Translations under genes and position numbers: made by a program
Shown: positions 29,924-60,853 of the stretch, piece after piece
Position numbering within the stretch: position 1 is the first letter of the stretch
Layout: the number at the start of each line of letters is the position of its first letter
Notes under the pieces: generated by a model
Told to the model about the DNA's origin: nothing
Databases searched by the model: none
Seen by the model: only the letters and a program-made list of their open reading frames with translations
NCBI GenBank assembly: GCA_003971905.1
Contig: RSEE01000126.1
Coordinates: forward strand, 1-64,000
DNA: 64,000 bases
Origin: Moniliella sp. 'wahieum'
Lineage: Eukaryota
Direction of reading: 5' to 3'

Positions 29924-31270
29924 TTAGGTATTAGGCCGGCGATCGAAACGGCGGTTGATGCCGCCCAGGAGGGCTTTAACGATCAAGTCGTACGACAAGG
30001 CCATGCCGCTAGCTGGGTGGTATCCACAATATCGCGTACGTGGCCTTGGGAGCTTAAACGTTCGTCGAGCGTCTGGAGGAATCGTGTGGCATCGGGGTCG
30101 TCGCCCACTTGGACAAAGGAAAAGCCCAATTGGGATAGGGGAAGTGATTCTGATCGAGACGACGAGCAATGGTAAGCAAGACTTGGTCCACGTCGTCCGT
30201 AGCTGCTCCGTCAGTGAGGATGAGGTAATTGCGTTTACGAGGCTCGACAGGTCCGCGGGGACCTACACCAATAGGTTGAACAGGTTGGCCGGTCGCACGA
30301 GCATGTTTGGCGCACTCGATGGCGTCAAGGTAGTCCTCATGAGTTCTTCGATCTTTGCCCCGGTCGGAGTCGCGCCATCGGGCACAACACTATCGAACAA
30401 AGCGCGGATAGCACCAGGATCAGTGCAGGCAAGCAAGCTGCGTGGGGAATTGAGGAAATGAACATCGATCCCATCGGGATCTTTACAAGCGACCAAGCTA
30501 GCCAAGCCAGCCAATGCTTCGCGCGCTTCGTGCCACCGACTAGGCCCGCCCGATGACCGACTCAGTTGCATAGAACCACTGTCGTCCACAATGATGACCG
30601 TGTCAAACGCTTTAAGTAGGTCCAATGGGTCCTCTGCCAAAGGCGCTGGCCCAGAACCCGAAGACATAGCTGGTGGTCTCACCGCCTCATTCGTCCCATC
30701 TGTCCCACTTGTCCCACTTGACATTCGCCCCGAACCTAACGCGCCCAACGCAGCTGCTCCCACCGCTACCCCGGCCATGACTGGTGCGTACCCCGCCCGC
30801 TCACCGCCGGGTTGGCCGGGGGATAGCCACCACTGGTTGGGCCTGCGGGGGGTACCCGCCATTGCTCCCGTTCGGGGAGGGTACCCGCCATTGCTCCCGT
30901 TCGGGGAGGGTAGCCGCCACTGCTCTGGTTGGGGGGAGGATAGCCTCCACTGCTCTGGTTGGGGGGAGGATAGCCGCCGCTGCTCTGGTTGGGGGAGGAT
31001 AACCTCCAGTTTGGTTCGGCGGAGGATAGCCTCCACTGCTCTGGTTCGGGGGAGGGTACGCTCCACTTTGACTCGGGGGGGATAGCCGCCACTACTTTGA
31101 CTCGGAGGAGGATAGCCTCCACTTTGGTTTGGCGGAGGGTAGGCGCCATAGACTTGGTTGGATGGCGGGTAGGCAGGGTAGCCAGGCGTGGCGTTGGCGT
31201 AGGGCGCGGGGGGCTGGCTGGCGGGCGGGGCGCCGGTGGGGTTCGCGTACGCGTACGGTTCGAAGGCCAT
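29924..31270 (-). CDS. Fungal VWA-domain protein with N-terminal Pro/Gly/Tyr repeats
   Basis: FDTVIIVDDSGSM (MIDAS DxSxS), RWHEAREAL, DPDGIDVHFLN, TPTG, NYLILTDG, FVQVGDD, RDIVDT, KALLGGINRRFD; several frameshifts. Confidence 0.85.
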
Positions 31271-32252
31271 GGCGGAGGTGCTGGGGTGCGGGCTGGCGCT
31301 GAGGAGGTAAGTCCGAAGTGCGGGTCCTGCTCGGGGCCAAGCAGGTGGTGGGGAGCGAGCTGGCCGGGCGGGACACTGGACCCGGCCACACCTTACTATT
31401 ACGCACCCACAGCTGCGCAGCGTCGATCTTAATCTTTCAGATTTCGGATTTCAGATTTCAGTCCGCCCGCACTCTCCCGAGCTACGCGGGCGGGTCGTCG
31501 CTAAATACCTGACCCATCCGACTGCGAATGCGAGCGGAGGACTTGGTCCTTAGTACTTGATGGTGGTGAGGCTCACCGGCTCACCCCTCTGCCTGAGGAC
31601 AGACTCTGGGGGGATGGACCAAGGGGCACCCGTGTCGTAACCTCTTCGCATGTGTGCTACGGCTCTACTACGGCTCTATGGCGCGAGAGTGCCCACCAGA
31701 ACCACAGTCGATCAGGTGAGGGGTGGCGCAGTGGCGAGGGCAAGCAGAGGGCGTGGACCACGGTGCCTAGGTCCAGTGCAGTCCAGGCCGGTGGAGTGGC
31801 ATCGTTCGCCCGTGGCTCGACCTAGACCCAAATGCGCATTGCCTACGCCCCGAGACCGAGGCAGGAACGGGAGGCTGACGTCCAACGTCCACCTCGCCAA
31901 GTGAGGGCGTTGGCACAGCTACCGCCTAGTGGGTACTATGGGGTTCCCTGTGCCAAGCCAGTCGGGTGTCAGGGATGCGCGGAGCGCGAAATGCAAGGAC
32001 GTGTCACGTTCAATCACAGAACGAGAGGGGGGGGGGGGGGGGACAGGGCAGAATGAAAGGAAAGGAAAGGAAATTATTATGTCGATCATGGATCATGAAT
32101 AAGGGAGACCCGCGATCTGGGGTTGGATCCGACGCACGGACCAAACCGAGCCGGCGGGCCTGCCCGTGGCGCGTGCGGGACCGAGGGGGAGGGGGAAAAG
32201 GGGGAGGTACATGCGAGAAAGAGAGGAAGGTGGACCTCGACGAGAAGCGAAA

Positions 32253-45997: not shown

Positions 45998-47690
45998 ATG
46001 TCCAGCCGCACCACGGGCCGCCTCGACTCGTACAAGAGCAAGGGTCTGCTCCACTCCGACGACCTCCGCCGCCGCCGCGAGGACCAGCAGGTCGAGATCC
46101 GCCGTCAGAAGCGCGATGAGACCCACGCCAAGCGCCGCCAGATGGACCTCACCAGCGCCGACCTGACCGACGATGATGAGGAGGACGAGGAGGGCCGGTC
46201 GGCAGCAGCATCGAGGTAGTCTTCTTTCTCCGCTCTGGCGGTGTGCATTGCATTGCATTGGAGTGCTAACGTTGCTACGTGCTCCCCCCACGCAGCAGAA
46301 CCGCCTGCCGAGATGGTGACCAAGCTCATGTCCGACAACCCGGCCGACCAGCTGGAGGCCACGTCGCTGTTCCGCAAGCTGCTGTCCAAGGAGAAGAACC
46401 CGCCGATCGACGGGTCATTGCCACGGGTGCTGTGCCGCGCTTTGTCGAGTTTCTGCGCTCGGACAACAGCCTGATCCAGTTCGAAGCCGCCTGGGCGCTG
46501 ACCAACATCGCCTCTGGCACATCGGAGCACACCAAGGTGGTGATTGGGGCCGGTGCGGTGCCCGTGTTTATTGAGTTGCTCTCTTCGCCCATTTTGGATG
46601 TGCGCGAACAAGCTGTCTGGGCCCTGGGCAACATTGCCGGTGACAACCCGCAGTGCCGGGACTATGTGCTGAGCCAAGGCGCGATGCAGCCGTTGTTGAC
46701 GCTGCTGAATGAGAACCAAAAGATTGGCATGCTGCGTAACGCGACCTGGACCCTGAGCAACTTTTGCCGTGGCAAGAACCCCCCGCCGGCATGGGAGTTT
46801 GTCGCGCCGGCACTGCCAATGCTCGGCAAGCTCATCTACTCGATGGACGAGGAAATTTTGATCGACACGTGCTGGGCCATCTCATACCTTTCCGATGGAT
46901 CCAACGACAAGATCCAAGCCGTCATCGAGGCTGGCATTGTGCGTCGTCTGGTCGAACTCTTGACTGCCGACTCGACCGCAATCCAGACCCCCGCCCTCCG
47001 CTCCGTCGGCAACATTGTCACGGGCGACGACTTGCAAACCCAAGTGGTTGTGGCGGCCGGTGCACTGACGCCGCTACTGGCACTGCTCTCGTCTCAAAAG
47101 GAAGGGATCAAGAAGGAAGCCTGTTGGACCATCTCCAACATCACGCTGGCTCGACGCACCAAGTGCAATCGGTCATTGACGCCAACATCATCCCGCCCCT
47201 GATTGAGATTCTCAAGACGGCCGACTTTAAGACGCGCAAAGAAGCGTGTTGGGCCATCAGCAACGCCACCTCGGCCGGGCTGCAGCGCCGGAACAGATCC
47301 GGTACCCTCGTTTCTCAAGGCTGCATCCGTCCGCTGTGCGACCTGCTGACGATTATGGACAACAAGATTATCCAGGTAGCCCTGGACGGGTTGGAGAACA
47401 TCCTCAGGTGGGCGAGCAAGACAAGGTCGCTGCTGGTCCTGGGGCTGTGAACCAGTATGCGGCACACATTGAGGAGAGTGGTGGCCTGGTCACCATTCAC
47501 AACTTGCAGCAGCACGAGAACCATGACATTTACCAAAAGTCGTTCTACTCATGGACCATTACTTCCCCGATGACGAGGACGACCAGGCGGAAGAAGGAGC
47601 GGCGCAACCCGCTCTGGATGCCCAGGAGCGTACACGTTCCAGACCGATATGGCTGCGCCCCAGGGCGGCTTCTCATTTGGGGCGGCCTAA
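45998..47690 (+). CDS. SRP1: Importin alpha (karyopherin alpha)
   Basis: IBB domain [22 protein letters not shown] repeats [51 protein letters not shown]; intron at about 46216-46295. Confidence 0.96.
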
Positions 47691-48973
47691 GGCCAAAGGG
47701 AAAGAGGGCGGAAAGGAAAGGAAAGGAAAGGACCCATCTCATCTCATCTTCTCCTATTCTCTCCTCTCCTCTCCTCTCCTGCCCTCTCTGCCTGCTCTAC
47801 CGACGATCCCATTGCACAGGTACAAACTTACCTTGTCCCCTCTTTCATAATCCTGTTGTGGGCTTCTGCACTCTCTGACCCTCTCAATACCACTCTCCTC
47901 AACCTTCGCCCCCCCCCCCCCCCCCCGTCCCTTCCCATGGCTATCCCCCGACGTAAACCGGGCTCGGTGTGCCAGTGCTTCTTCCGCTTCTCCTTGCCTT
48001 TTCTTTTCCCCTCTTACTTCGATCAGCCGGGTTGCCCCGCTCTTGTTGGCCTTGCAGACTGCATACTGCATAGGTACCCGCGCAGCATCTTCCTATTCTT
48101 TTTTCCGCATCGCTTTTTTTTTCGCTGCCTCATCTCCCCCTCCTACCATCTGCCTGCCCCCTTTGCCCTTTTCTTTTGCCCTTTGCTCCGGCCCTCCCCC
48201 CCCCCCCCCTCGCGCAATGAAGCCCCCCTGTTGGATCGCTCGCCCCGCAGGCCTCTCAACTCTCAACTCCGACAAAGCCCAAGTGACTCCGTATAAGTAT
48301 ACGTATACGTAGGAAAGACCCCCCGCCTACTGTCCGTTGCGGACAGGAGGAACCGATCACCGTGGCCGAGCTGGAGGCGAACAGGCAGACTACTAAGGTA
48401 CCGTTGATCGTGCGACTCGAGTTGGATGTCTGATGTCTCAAAAAATGGTGGAGGTACTTAGAGGTAGAGGTAGAGGAATGCCAGGTACTACTGGTGGTAT
48501 GCCAGCATTAGTGGGACATTGAATTCGACAGCTGAGAAAAGTGTGCGAGTGCGGGGAGGGAGGCGTGCGGGCGGGGCGGGGAAAAAGGGAGGGGGGAGGG
48601 AGAGAAGAGCTGAGGGGAGGGAGATTACGGGTACGGATTACGCAGAAAATGTGTTTCGCATTTCGTGTTAGTTATATTATGGTACGTTTTGGCAGCTGAT
48701 GGGCTGTGGGTGGAACATGGACATGGAAGGTGGCAAGACAAGATAAGCCAATTAGAGTACTACTAGGACTTAGTAGAAGGAGGAGTATTAGATCTAGGAA
48801 AACAACAGTAGTATCATGTGTGTTGTGTTGTGAAGGTGATGACGCGGGAGAGGCGATGAACAGGTGACCATACAGCGGCACCAGAAGCAGAAGCAGAGGG
48901 ATGGGATTTCCACTCTGCCTCCAGTTCTTCCTCCCCAATTCCACCCGCTCGATCTGCGCCTTGTTGGGCCAGA

Positions 48974-55498: not shown

Positions 55499-55887
55499 TT
55501 AGTAGAAGTAGCCCAGGATCTTGCCACCGGCGTGCTTGCGGCGCGCCTCCTCGTGGTCCATGATCCCCCCGAGGTGGTGAGGACAATGAAGCCAAAGGAC
55601 CGGGCAGGAAGCAAGTTCTCCACCCAGTTCTCCACCTGGCCCAGCTGGACGTTGAAGCGGGGCGAGATGACGCCGCACTTGTTGACCCGCCCGTTGAGCT
55701 GGATGACAATCTTGCCGCTCCGGTGGTCGTCGACCTCCTCAAACTCGCCAATGTAGCCGTGCTTCTGCATCACCTGCAGGAACTTGATGATGACCTTGGA
55801 CGACGGGCGGATGAGCACCTGCCGCTTCCCGCGCCGCTCGGCGTTGACAATGGCGTTGAGGCAGTCGTTCAGGACGGAGACACGCAT
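55499..55887 (-). CDS. RPS22: 40S ribosomal protein uS8 (S22/S15a)
   Basis: [50 protein letters not shown]...LGYFY; one frameshift near 55565; probable 5'-UTR intron 55890-55946. Confidence 0.97.
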
Positions 55888-56040
55888 GGCTACGCGCAAG
55901 GTCAGCGCACAGGGCCAGGAGGGGCGGGGGGGGGCAAGCCACGTACTGATGCTAGGCTTGGCGACGCTGGGCAAAGAGGTGGGTGAAGTGCAAGCGCTGG
56001 CCCGCCGCTGTGCCTCGAAGGCACACGGGGGGCGACAAAT

Positions 56041-56093
56041 ACAACCCTAGGCGCCGCGCCGCTTATTGCTGCGGCAAATTAAATACAGTCACA
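56041..56093. promoter_or_regulatory. Bidirectional ribosomal-protein promoter: ACAACCCTAG (Homol-E/telobox-like) and CAGTCACA (Homol-D)
   Basis: acaaccctag at 56041-56050 and cagtcaca at 56086-56093, between divergent RPS22 and RPS17. Confidence 0.7.
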
Positions 56094-56230
56094 CTGCCCG
56101 GGTGCCTGCCGTGTCTGGGCGCAATGCGCGGGACGGGCCCGCGCCGTCCGCCTAGGCCGCGGCAGCTCGTTCCCCCCCTCTTTGCTCCCCACCGTCTGCC
56201 ACCCCCACCCTCCAAGCCAGTTCGTTCACC

Positions 56231-56733
56231 ATGGGCCGCGTTCGCACCAAGACCACCAAGCGCGCCGCTCGCGTGCTCATCGAGAAGTACTACCCTAAGC
56301 TCAACGCGAACGACTTCCACACCAACAAGCGTGTGCTGGACGAGGTGGCCATCGTCCCCTCCAAGCGGCTGCGCAACAAGATTGCTGGCTTCACCACCCA
56401 CCTCATGAAGCGCATTGCCAAGGGCCCCGTCCGCGGCATCTCCTTCAAGCTGCAGGAGGAGGAGCGTGAGCGCAAGGTACGCACCTTCACCGTCCCCCCC
56501 TCCTGGTATGAGTGTTTAGATGCTGACTCGTTGTCGATTCCTAGGACCAATACGTTCCCGAGGTCTCGGCTCTCGACACGGAGGCCAACGGCGGCCTCGA
56601 GGTCGACCCCGACACCAAGGCTATGCTGGGCGAGATTGGCTTCGCCTCGCTCCCCGTCACGGTGGGTGCGCCGATTACCTCGGCCCAGCCGGAGCGCCGC
56701 GGCCGCCACGTGCCTGGTGCCGGCCGGCGTTAA
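56231..56733 (+). CDS. RPS17: 40S ribosomal protein eS17
   Basis: [64 protein letters not shown]; intron 56477-56544; in-frame TAA at 56731. Confidence 0.97.
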
Positions 56734-58073
56734 AATGCCGTCGCCTTGTCCTGCCTGGCCTTTTCCCCCCAAAATTCCACCTGATGCCTGTCATGGCGTC
56801 TCCCTGGTTTGTACGCCATAATCCTATGGATTCCTCATGCACCCTCAGCCTGTGTTGATAATCTCTTTGAGTTGTGTGCCGGGTTTTACGCAGGTAGAAG
56901 CGATGACACAATGACAGGCAGCCTCTGGACCTCGTCGGCACGGCTAGGGTCGGTGTGTGCGCCGCCTGGTACGGGGCCGGCGACTCTGTATTCGAGCTGA
57001 GGGCAGTTTGATACAACCCACTTCCCTTGGCTCGGTTCGGCGGCGCTGTGACTCTCCCGGACCTCTATTGAAGAAGCTTTTCGCGAGAGCGCACCACTGC
57101 CACTTCAACGAGCTACGAGCTGTGTACCAAGGTGTGGTTCGTCATAGTCAAGTTGAGGAGCTGTGCAATGCACTCACAGTACCACTTACTACACCCACAA
57201 GCTGCAGCGACATGATACGTGAACACATGAATTGGGCCGGCGCGAGGAGGTGCGGGGCACGAATGGGGAGCTGAGACTGCGGGCGACCGAGACGCTCGAC
57301 ACTGCCTTTGACCATTCTTTTCGAGAGTGTTGACATAAGAAAGTTTATATATACGGGTTTTTTATAACACGCAGCAGCTGTGTAACACAATGCAAGACCG
57401 ATTGCCTCAACAGGCGAGCGGGTCCGTGGTGGTCTGGACGCCATGTCGGGGACGTAACAATCCCTTGGACCACCTGCTATATGGAGGGGAAGCGACAGAA
57501 GGCCACCAGACGTGCGGCACGCACACATAGTGCTTCCCCACTCGATCCCGGCAGCGGACCTGGACATCGAGAGTCTATATTATGTGGGGTTCTCACACCT
57601 CGTGTGGCGCAGCGGCCCTACTCACAAAGAAGACGCACATGCATCGCAGCCGAGCTACGAGGAGGATGCAGTGTCGCCGGATCGATGCCGCGCTCTCCCC
57701 CCAAGTCGTCACAGCATACGTGGCGGTGGCGCCCTGCACGGGGTCGCCGCCAAAGGAGCTTCCCCTTGGCTCAACCCCAGTCTGCCGCCCTCTCGCGGCT
57801 ACATTGGACGAAGCAGGCGAGAGCGAGAGGCTCCCCAGCCCGTCCTCTTCGCTGTGTGCGGGCCAGAAGAGACAAGGTTGGACGAACAAACGTATTTAAC
57901 CCCCAGCCGCGCGTCCTCAAAACCTCTCTTCCCCCACCTCCTACCCCTCCCTCTTTTCCGATCTCTCCCTTCTTCGTCATTGACAGACTACACACTCCCT
58001 ACCATCCTACTGTTGCTGGCACAGATTTCTCCCTCTTCCTTGTCTCCCAATCACCTCTTTCCCACCAACCATC

Positions 58074-60071
58074 ATGCACCTCAGTGCCAACTTCGCCGCT
58101 CTTCTGCTGTGCGCGCTGGGCGCGTCGGCAGTCCCGAGTGGATCCACACCTCGTCCGGTGGAGGTTCCTCTCAAGCGCGGTGCGCGCGGAAACTTGCTGG
58201 CCCTGATGGCCATGTCTCGTACGAAAAGATCGCCCAGGAGGTGGATCGTGTGCGAGCCAAGTACGTGCGCACCATGAAGAACTACGAGGCCAACACCGGA
58301 CACAAGCACCATATGGATGCTACCCATCTCCTTACCCCGCCCAGCGCCGAGGCACCGGTACCGTTTCTCTCACCGATACCGACAGCGAAGAGCTCTGGGT
58401 CGGTAACATTGCTTTTGGTTCGCCCGCGCAACAGATCCCCATCGGTACGCTACCCCTTCTTGCTTGATCTTGTCTATGGAACGAAGACGAGAGAGCATTG
58501 AAGAAGAGAACTGAGAGCTGACTTGCACCGCACAGACTTTGACACTGGCTCTTCTGATACGCTGTGCAACCCCTCTGCCTACACGCCCTCCAAGTCGAGC
58601 ACCAAGCAGGATACCGGCACCACGTTCCAAGATTCGTACGCTGACGGGACCACGGCTTCGGGTGAAGTGTACTCGGACAAACTGACCATCGGTGGTTTGA
58701 CAGCGAACAAGGCCTACATTGGTTTGTCCAAGCAATCCTTATCCAGGGCGAAGGTACAAGCCAAGGGATCAGCGGCATGGCCTTCCCCTCCCTCTCTCCT
58801 TTCAACAAAAGGAACCCTTTTTCCAATCCCTCATCTCATCCGGCGCGGTGGACACGCATGCATTTCAGTTCCAGCTGCGCAAGTCGGGCTCGACATTGAC
58901 TTTGGGCAAGTCTAGCAGCAGCGCAACCTGGGTCCCAGTCACCGACGCTTCATACTGGTCCGTCCAGGGGTCCATCAAAGGTGGGTCAGGTAAGCGAAGC
59001 CTGGCCGGTCACCGTAAACTGGCCCGCCAGTTTGGATCGGCCGGTTCGCTCGGAGGATTCGGACTGGGATCGGAGCCGTTCGGAGGGGGTTCCCAAGGTG
59101 GTGGAGGCATGGGAGGGGGCTCGCAGGGTGGCGGAGGCATGGGAGGGGCTCGCAGGGTGGAGGCGGTACCGGTGGGGGCTCTCAGGGCGGGGGAGGTACC
59201 GGTGGGGGCTCCCAAGGTGGCGGAGGCATGGGAGGGGGCTCTCAGGGAGGAGGCGGTACCGGTGGGGGCTCTCAGGGTGGCGGTGGTACCGGTGGGGGTT
59301 CGCAGGGTGGCGGCGGTACCGGTGGCGGTTCTCAAGGGGGCGGAGGCACGGTGGGGGCTCTCAACCGGGTGGTGGGGGCTCTGGGGGTGGCGGATCTGGG
59401 GGTGGAGGATCTGGGGGTGGAGGATCTGGGGGTGGAGGATCTGGTGGAGGGGGCCAACTTCACGGCATCGTTGACTCTGGAACGACCCTCATCGTTAGTA
59501 CGTCTGCTTTTCCCCGACCGGTTTTCTTCTGTCTGCGTTTACTTCTACAGTAGATTGTGATGGACACGGCGTATATGCTAACACTGTTGCGGACAGCCCC
59601 CACGAGCGAAGCCCAAAGCCTGTTCAAGTCGCTTGGACTGAAGAGTTCGACGCAGAACGGGCAGCTGACCGCCACTTACTCGTGCTCGCAACAGCCCGAT
59701 GTGAGTGTGACGTTTGGGAGCAAAACCATTTCGTTGGGCGACTCGACGTCCCACGGCACTGCTTCCGATGGCTCTTGCGTCTTTGCCGTTGTTGGCGCGG
59801 TACGTACTACCATACTTTCTGGCTGAGAGCTAGTAGCTGACTCTTTACTCTTCCACTCTTTCCTCTTCCCTGCAGAATGTTGGCACCACCGGTACCATCT
59901 TTGGCGACCCAGTCTTCCAACAGGCGGTACGTATTATACAACCCCGTCCATTCTCCCATTCCCAATCCCCTGTCTATCAGTTGATGGCCCAGCCAAAACT
60001 GACCCTACATTTTCCGTTGCGCGCAGACAATCACGTTTGACGTGGCGGGAAAGCGGGTTGGCTTTGAGTAA
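58074..60071 (+). CDS. Secreted pepsin-like (A1) aspartic protease with large Gly/Ser insert
   Basis: Signal-like MHLSANFAALLLCALGASA; LWVGNI..G; DFDTGSSD; flap SYADGTTASG; GIVDSGTT; IFGD; FDVAGKRVGF. Introns 58445-58535, 59498-59596, 59800-59875, 59927-60026. Confidence 0.92.
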
Positions 60072-60853
60072 GTGCACACGACGCTGGTCGTCTCTGTTCA
60101 CACCCACCGACACACACACACACACGTCTACACACAGGTGATTGTGCGCCTAGTAGTTCCTTCTCTTCTGCACTGGAAGAGTGTGAAATTCTTCTTCCTG
60201 CAGCCGTATGGGGCGGTGAGAAACAATTAAAGGCCCCCACATCTCTTCTTCAACTCATCTCTGGATGCTATGCATGGAATGCCCGGAACGCACTGCATTG
60301 TTTCCAAAGCCTGTGCCCACACCACAACCAAGCTTCTCCTTTCTCCTCTTTTGCTTTCTCCTCCACTATGATGCCCCGTACCCCTGGATGGGACCAGGCA
60401 CTTCACATTGAATTCTTGTCTATGCCACGCGTCTGTCTGCCATGGCGCAGAGCAAGTCCCACTCTCGATCCTCAAAATAATAGCGCCATCTTCATTCGTC
60501 GATAGACATACCTACTACAGTGCTATACTACTGTCACAAGCACGCTTCTGCTTCTACAACGCTGGCACCGCGGCGTCTTCGACAATACGCAACTGGGCAA
60601 CACATTGCAATGCACCGTCTCGCAAAAGCGCACGAGAGCGACCAACTGCCAGTGGCAGAAACAGCGCACAAAAGAGCCCATCGCCTCAGCCCTCGTAAGT
60701 ATGACGCCCACAACGCCAACATCAAAACGAAACGAAACGAAACGAAACGAAACCCAACCACGCGACACACTTTGACTCGAGTCGCCAGTCTACCGCGCTT
60801 GCGCGTCGAACGAGAACGCGTGACCCGGGCCGCGCGGCGCAGCGTGGTTCTCC

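What the first reader, a model, noticed from the sequence alone, without database searches (positions are those of the whole stretch)
58979..59457. Aspartic protease with a ~155-aa Gly/Ser repeat insert and dibasic site just before the second catalytic Asp
Seen: between YWSVQGSIK and LHGIVDSGTT lie GGSGKRSLAGHRKLARQFGS, nine 30-nt GGGSQGGGG(M/T) units, and a natural (GGGGS)5 run. The units differ mostly at third codon positions, which suggests selection at the protein level. Known: in pepsin-family enzymes this segment is only a short loop, and KR is the Kex2 cleavage signal. Inference: the enzyme may mature into two chains with a long disordered glycine-rich arm, analogous in logic to the plant-specific insert or yapsin loop cleavage but unrelated in sequence. 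I do not know of this architecture being described.
Basis: partly seen in the sequence, partly recalled or inferred. Interest (0 to 1): 0.7.

Follow-up and report, generated by a model that had tools for sequence, protein, structure and literature searches.

The report
Fungal protease with cleavable glycine arm
A small family of secreted pepsin-like enzymes in a smut-related fungus carries a long floppy glycine/serine stretch in the middle of the enzyme, always preceded by the same likely cutting signal, which suggests an unusual two-chain enzyme with a flexible arm whose job is still untested.

Summary
The insert is real and almost certainly protein-coding. It adds about 157 residues in place of a two-residue hairpin turn just before the second catalytic Asp. 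The window copy has two one-base gaps in it. The syntenic second copy (C133) is unbroken at both, has 12 rather than 9 units, and has its own gap elsewhere, as expected of read errors. No branch point or usable acceptor exists. Three more loci, each in two copies, carry an insert at the same place. Their repeats differ (GSGSY, GAGSG; 46-187 extra residues), but a basic cluster followed by QFG(S) is kept. None of 140 alignable outside homologues has such an arm; two Polyporales enzymes have an unrelated S/T/P insert there. Best reading: kexin-type cleavage gives a non-covalent two-chain enzyme whose second chain starts with a pyroglutamate-capped Gly/Ser arm. Cleavage, expression and function are inferred; no RNA run was listed. 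New variant of a known kind; interest 0.5.

The parts
58074..60071 (+). Gene for a secreted family A1 (pepsin-like) aspartic protease, 5 exons; six frame breaks in this assembly (4 outside, 2 inside the insert)
   Evidence: Three-frame translation; Pfam Asp 36.2 bits against a cut-off of 19.9 for 58535-58738; alignment with C133
58074..58130 (+). Probable signal peptide (hydrophobic N-terminus)
   Evidence: Sequence by inspection; no predictor run
58131..58350 (+). Pro-segment ending in QRR|GTG; 76-81% identical among insert-bearing paralogues
   Evidence: junction inferred from alignment with relatives
58445..58535 (+). Intron 1 (GTACGC...CTGAC...CAG)
58541..58543 (+). First catalytic Asp (DFDTGS)
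   Evidence: motif present in 8 of 8 insert-bearing copies
58980..59454 (+). The insert, about 157 codons, replacing the N-G turn of the hairpin before the second Asp
58990..58995 (+). Donor-like GTAAGC; a by-product of Gly-Lys codons, with no branch point or in-phase YAG acceptor downstream in the insert
58992..58997 (+). KR, canonical dibasic site, only in the C126/C133 locus
59013..59039 (+). Conserved motif RKLAR|QFGS (RKTRR/RKNRR|QFGS in paralogues): inferred processing site and new N-terminal Gln
59091..59358 (+). Nine 30-nt units SQGGGG(M/T)GGG, two of them one base short in this assembly; 12 units in C133
59359..59454 (+). SQP followed by (GGGGS)n tail, 15-nt units
59473..59475 (+). 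Second catalytic Asp (GIVDSGT)
59498..59596 (+). Intron 2
59800..59875 (+). Intron 3
59927..60026 (+). Intron 4; last exon ends the protein with no GPI-type tail

Best explanation
A secreted A1 aspartic protease of a smut-related basidiomycete, one of four loci whose common ancestor gained a coding insert at the tip of the surface hairpin that precedes the second catalytic Asp. Shown: the insert is coding, in frame with both lobes where the assembly is clean, low in complexity, and headed by a conserved basic motif. Inferred: after signal and pro-segment removal, a kexin (or the enzyme itself) cuts after the basic cluster, at R|QFGS and in this locus also at KR. Basic ends are trimmed and the new N-terminal Gln cyclises. 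The two chains, each with one catalytic Asp, stay together through shared beta-sheets, since the only Cys pair lies within the second chain. The second chain then bears a free, disordered Gly/Ser arm of variable length. Least certain: the arm acts as a flexible surface spacer or tether that changes where the enzyme stays or what reaches it, not as part of catalysis.
For: Open frame across YW, insert and DSGT in C120 (201 nt, no donor, no branch point); 114 residues of arm in frame with the second lobe in C108b. Insert at reference positions 256-267 in 8 of 24 own-genome loci examined and in none of the other 16. Arg-Gln-Phe-Gly-Ser codons in 7 of 8 copies and Arg-Arg-Gln-Phe in the error-rich eighth, while arm units differ between loci. 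Basic residues cluster just before the Gln (4-8 of the last 12 residues) and are nearly absent after it. The locus with Ala instead of Arg at P2 is the only one with an extra KR upstream. The same genes use RR|G as pro-junction, and the nearest outside relatives use AR|G. A kexin gene is in the assembly. Kex2 cuts after KR, RR or KK, possibly single Arg, and new N-terminal Gln often becomes pyroglutamate (PMC9769878, passages). Loop cleavage to a two-subunit A1 enzyme is established for Yps1 (PMC4353680, passages).
Against: No transcript or protein data (one search listed no run). Every copy has frame breaks in this assembly, and near 58800 both C126 and C133 are out of frame (by different amounts), so this locus being a pseudogene is not excluded. 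In the window copy P2 before QFGS is Ala, a weak kexin context. Arm length and repeat unit are not conserved, which fits a loosely constrained loop. Panus and Somion enzymes have an unrelated insert in the same hairpin, and Somion's has no dibasic site. The fragment model is poor (pLDDT 51; no Foldseek hit at E <= 0.001). The kexin gene was found once and may belong to another genome in this mixed assembly.
Confidence: 0.58

Rival explanations
1. A tolerated, uncut loop. The hairpin tip accepts extra sequence, slippage expands Gly/Ser repeats, and selection only keeps the frame and a harmless composition; the enzyme stays single-chain.
For: Arm length varies from 46 to 187 residues and differs by three units between the two copies of one locus. 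Independent S/T/P-rich inserts occur at the same hairpin in Panus rudis and Somion occarium.
Against: It does not explain why RK..R|QFGS stays fixed while everything after it turns over, why basic residues cluster only there, or why KR appears where RR became AR.
Confidence: 0.2
2. The insert is a removable internal segment, like the plant-specific insert. It is opened at the basic site and then digested by the enzyme itself at Phe, Leu, Met or Tyr, releasing short Gly/Ser peptides and leaving an ordinary compact two-chain protease; it may delay activity or aid secretion.
For: Arms contain regularly spaced hydrophobic residues (Met in this locus, Tyr in the GSGSY arms, Phe/Leu at the start). 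Pepsin-like enzymes prefer hydrophobic P1/P1' (recalled). Plant enzymes lose the insert partly or wholly (PMC7909840, passages), and Yps1 loop cleavage is autocatalytic and raises shedding activity.
Against: The last 40-100 residues of the arms have no basic or bulky residue and no second processing motif, so a sizeable arm would remain. The hairpin is not the N-entrance loop that guards the cleft.
Confidence: 0.14
3. An intron, an assembly artefact or a decaying pseudogene repeat.
For: Donor-like CAG|GTAAGC at 58987-58995; two frame breaks in the repeat; both copies broken near 58800.
Against: No CTRAY on the + strand between 58686 and 59578, whereas all four real introns have one. All CAG in the repeat are in phase 0 and the donor is in phase 1. 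C120/C43 have no donor at all. The insert is 70% GC against about 55% around it. Variation is at third positions. Breaks occur at a similar rate outside the insert (4 in about 1,160 coding nt against 2 in about 470) and also in the ribosomal S22-type gene of this window.
Confidence: 0.08

Closest known systems
Secreted A1 proteases of Ustilaginomycotina: Tilletiaria anomala acid protease (P0002), Ustilago 'related to pepsin precursor' (P0004), Malassezia enzymes (P0009, P0018)
   Same: Same subfamily: 33-50% identity for the 18 best hits over the C120 fragment (61% over matched stretches for P0002), same pro-segment type, motifs and C-terminus.
   Different: YW..D[ST]G[TS] is 21-22 residues in 18 of 18, with a two-residue turn; no arm and no internal basic site.
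Yapsin Yps1 (S. cerevisiae)
   Same: A large insertion loop with basic sites is cut to give two subunits, each with one catalytic Asp (PMC4353680, passages).
   Different: The Yps1 loop lies between Cys117 and Cys186 in the N-lobe (N-entrance loop), and Yps1 is GPI-anchored. Here the insert is in the hairpin before the second Asp, has no flanking Cys, is a Gly/Ser repeat, and the protein has no GPI-type tail.
Typical plant aspartic proteases with the plant-specific insert (phytepsin, cardosins)
   Same: An internal insert is processed to a heterodimeric enzyme (PMC7909840, passages).
   Different: The PSI is a folded saposin-like domain with membrane activity, located after the second Asp (position recalled; the review says C-terminal region). 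Here the insert has no Cys, is disordered and lies before the second Asp.
Polyporales acid proteases P0151 (Panus rudis KAI0075693.1) and P0173 (Somion occarium)
   Same: Low-complexity insert of about 33 residues in the same hairpin; P0151 ends it with SRR|ET.
   Different: S/T/P-rich and unrelated in sequence; the dibasic site is not shared by the two; uncharacterised gene models.
KEX2-processed repeat proteins (KEPs)
   Same: Dibasic site followed by Gln that cyclises to pyroglutamate; repeats in a secreted precursor (PMC9769878, passages).
   Different: KEP cores are each flanked by dibasic sites. Here the basic cluster occurs once, ahead of an uninterrupted repeat arm, inside an enzyme domain.

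Membership tests
Peptidase family A1 (pepsin-like) | Two hydrophobic-hydrophobic-D[ST]G motifs, one per lobe | tested here: met
   DFDTGS at 58541 and GIVDSGT at 59473
Peptidase family A1 (pepsin-like) | Pfam Asp (PF00026) above the curated cut-off | tested here: met
   36.2 bits against 19.9 for one exon piece; a second piece 16.2, below the cut-off; two other pieces no hit
Peptidase family A1 (pepsin-like) | Flap Tyr and the two hydrophobic-hydrophobic-Gly motifs | tested here: met
   SYADG, ISGM and IFGD in the window, aligning with invariant or nearly invariant columns
Peptidase family A1 (pepsin-like) | Pepstatin-sensitive acid protease activity | not testable with these tools
   Needs protein
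Peptidase family A1 (pepsin-like) | Intact reading frame in the organism | tested here: inconclusive
   Six breaks in C126 and three in C133; all but one site differ between the copies; no reads listed
Yapsins | C-terminal GPI signal | tested here: not met
   The protein ends directly after the last strand; by inspection
Yapsins | Cys-bounded insertion loop in the N-lobe | tested here: not met
   No such loop; the insert is in the hairpin before the second Asp
Yapsins | Cleavage into two subunits | not testable with these tools
   Inferred only from the motif
Plant typical AP with PSI | Saposin-like, Cys-containing insert | tested here: not met
   The insert has no Cys and is Gly/Ser repeat; insert residues 138-178 have pLDDT < 50 in a weak fragment model
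KEX2-processed repeat proteins | Each repeated core flanked by dibasic sites | tested here: not met
   No basic residue between repeat units in the window locus

The most novel reading that the evidence does not exclude
A lineage-specific class of two-chain fungal aspartic proteases in which processing unmasks a pyroglutamate-capped, rapidly diversifying low-complexity arm that has its own job: tethering or gelling the enzyme on a cell wall, cuticle or host surface (three of four loci have Tyr-bearing GSGSY repeats, like gel-forming [G/S]Y[G/S] domains; that likeness is recalled, not tested), or serving as a built-in precursor of repeat peptides released by the enzyme itself.
Probability: 0.2. 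Interest if true: 0.75.

Novelty: new variant of a known kind. Interest (0 to 1): 0.5.

Why it matters
Two-chain A1 proteases are known, but through other loops and other inserts. If confirmed, this adds a third site and a new type of insert: a kexin-type site plus a disordered arm whose sequence is swapped between paralogues while the cut site stays. It gives a simple test of how secreted fungal proteases gain localisation or regulation without changing the catalytic core. It also shows that the hairpin before the second Asp takes up to about 190 residues, including a natural (GGGGS)n run like the engineered linker, which is useful for protein engineering and for gene annotation, where such segments are easily called introns or frameshifts.

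Tried and rejected
Sequencing runs: none was listed for 58000-60200, so no reads were laid; this says nothing about expression. Metagenome scan: 325 pattern matches, none confirmed. Donor of the insert in the own genome: the insert as query hit only 4 insert-bearing protease loci; the RQFGS codon pattern gave 28 matches against 36 for the control, 7 in these proteases, and none of the other 21 has a basic cluster plus Gly/Ser arm. Insert-centred search among proteins of 115-368 residues: 2 hits, both without insert. Atlas: only A1 fragments, scores below 0.9. AlphaFold of the C120 fragment was low confidence and Foldseek gave only weak A1 hits. A tree and a scripted synonymous count could not be run because the script machine was lost; common origin rests on pro-segment and DNA similarity. 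Two rows were in the wrong frame and were ignored. Synteny of paralogues: C120 lies beside siderophore-type genes, not the ribosomal-protein pair, and the three other rps17 regions fetched hold no DFDTGS motif. No complex prediction was sent, since two halves of one fold would pass by likeness. Literature: nine searches found no description of this architecture; one search timed out; the library lacks most subscription papers, and no supplements were read.

Full report
Gene and context. The window is contig C126 of a 69.5-Mb, 223-contig eukaryotic assembly. The finding lies in exon 2 of a five-exon gene from ATG 58074 to TAA 60071, with a hydrophobic N-terminus, a pro-segment ending in QRR|GTG, DFDTGS at 58541, a flap SYADG, GIVDSGT at 59473 and IFGD near the end. 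One exon piece scores above the Pfam Asp cut-off. The best named relative is an acid protease of Tilletiaria anomala, followed by Ustilago, Violaceomyces, Tilletia and Malassezia enzymes, so the organism is a smut-related basidiomycete. The assembly holds more than one genome copy: 52-58 kb matches C133 at 91% over 6 kb, and Top2 matches three contigs.

The observation. YW to DSGT spans 532 nt in the window against 63 nt in the insert-free paralogues printed, about 157 extra codons. It holds GGSGKRSLAGHRKLARQFGS, a short linker, nine 30-nt units and a (GGGGS)n tail. Two units are 29 nt, so the frame is broken twice in this assembly.

Are the breaks real? The syntenic copy on C133 is unbroken at both places, has 12 units (90 nt more, in frame) and has one gap of its own in the tail. 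The window gene has four more breaks outside the insert, a similar rate (4 in about 1,160 coding nt, 2 in about 470), and the ribosomal S22-type gene in this window is also broken. Frameshifts were detected in 20 of 24 protease loci aligned. One result goes against the clean picture: near 58800, in a CT-rich run, both copies are out of frame, by one and by two bases. Read error is the simplest cause, but without reads (one search listed none) a pseudogene at this locus is not excluded.

Is it an intron? All four real introns have a GTACG donor, a CTRAY branch and a YAG acceptor. The + strand has no CTRAY between 58686 and 59578. Every CAG in the repeat is in phase 0 while the GTAAGC donor is in phase 1, and the last 150 nt hold no YAG. 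The paralogue on C120 has no donor-like site and reads open from YW to DSGT. In the seven full-length window units all 10 third codon positions vary and only 1 of 20 others (hand count, p about 4e-7). In the tail the eight substitutions I counted between the two copies in columns 1401-1500 are all synonymous. The segment is coding.

A paralogue group. Of 24 own-genome loci aligned to the Tilletiaria enzyme (chosen as the nearest of 101 Pfam-matching pieces, not all), 8 have a 133-560 nt gap between Trp257 and Asp273 and 16 have none over 3 nt. The eight form four pairs: C126/C133, C120/C43, and two loci each on C108 and C98. Their pro-segments are 76-100% identical to the window's over the main matched piece, against 45-55% for insert-free paralogues (62% for one 21-residue piece), which points to a single origin; no tree could be built. 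The arms differ: SQGGGG(M/T)GGG plus GGGGS here; GSGSY and GAGSG repeats of different lengths elsewhere, one with an acidic start. What stays is the head: RKLAR|QFGS, RKTRR|QFGS (two loci) and RKNRR|QFGS (C43 keeps the Thr-Arg-Arg-Gln-Phe codons amid errors). KR occurs only in the locus where RR has become AR. The first catalytic motif is intact in all eight.

Outside this genome. The 18 closest full-length homologues have 21-22 residues from YW to D[ST]G[TS]. Of 167 proteins aligned, 140 could be anchored at both ends; 138 have 19-32 residues, one has 39 (probably a retained intron) and one 60. The 27 others were fragments or misaligned and were not counted. The 60-residue case, from Panus rudis, has a T/P-rich insert ending in SRR|ET; its relative in Somion occarium has an S/N/P-rich insert of the same length with no dibasic site. 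So the hairpin tolerates inserts, but no Gly/Ser arm with this motif was found. These searches are limited by word seeds, clustering and sparse sampling of the lineage.

Structure. A confident model of the insert-free Tilletiaria enzyme (pLDDT 86) shows strands 258-263 and 266-272 joined by the two-residue turn N264-G265, directly before Asp273; the alignment places the insert at that turn. A model of the C120 fragment was weak (pLDDT 51) but showed the same two strands around a disordered stretch. Distance to the active site was not measured.

Mechanism. Shown: coding insert, position, conserved basic head, variable low-complexity arm. Established elsewhere: Kex2 cuts after KR, RR or KK, possibly single Arg, Kex1 trims, and N-terminal Gln often cyclises (PMC9769878, passages); Yps1 is cut in an insertion loop into two subunits each with one Asp (PMC4353680, passages); plant enzymes become heterodimers by loss of their insert (PMC7909840, passages). 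A kexin gene is in the assembly, and the nearest relatives use AR|G as pro-junction. Inferred: cleavage at R|QFGS yields a non-covalent two-chain enzyme whose second chain begins with a capped Gly/Ser arm (0.58). Rivals are an uncut tolerated loop (0.2), a self-digested removable segment (0.14) and an intron, artefact or pseudogene (0.08). The arm's role is a guess; a surface spacer or tether is the most economical.

Novelty. The enzyme is an ordinary member of family A1 and works, if cut, like Yps1 or the cardosins, but it fails the defining tests for yapsins, PSI-bearing plant enzymes and KEPs. Nine literature searches found no description; apart from the three papers above and two passages of PMC7161080 (not informative) I saw only listings, and no supplements. 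The scan's own notes hold nothing on this insert. Verdict: a real, apparently undescribed variant of a known kind, interest 0.5.

Noticed in passing
G000 as a whole; window 46000-47700 and 55500-56750: The assembly seems to hold more than two related genome copies: the ribosomal S22/S17-type gene pair recurs on C133, C88, C10 and C115 (79-92%), a gene at 46-47.7 kb on C88 (84%) and C127/C44 (73%), and Top2 on three contigs. Hybrid, polyploid or mixed culture.
   Followed up: partly
window 55499-56046 (-): The ribosomal S22/S15a-type gene has a frame break near its end, a handy measure of assembly indel error (gene name from my recognition of the sequence).
   Followed up: partly
window 30263-31450 (-): A 30-nt array encoding PPNQSSGGYP-type repeats lies ahead of a domain with a VDDSGSM motif (vWA-like, recalled); frame broken several times.
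   Followed up: no
P0151 and P0173: Polyporales acid proteases from Panus rudis and Somion occarium carry two extra low-complexity inserts, one in the same hairpin and one acidic insert near the C-terminus.
   Followed up: partly
L104:520-5289 (C120:118.5-123.3 kb): The C120 paralogue lies next to genes resembling an ornithine N-oxygenase and a siderophore acyltransferase (identity by recognition, not searched).
   Followed up: no
C126/C133 versus C120, C43, C108, C98: The window locus has four introns while the other three insert-bearing loci keep only the first.
   Followed up: no
G000 aspartic proteases: The family is much expanded: 101 Pfam-matching pieces, with the nearest 24 loci mostly in pairs.
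   Followed up: partly
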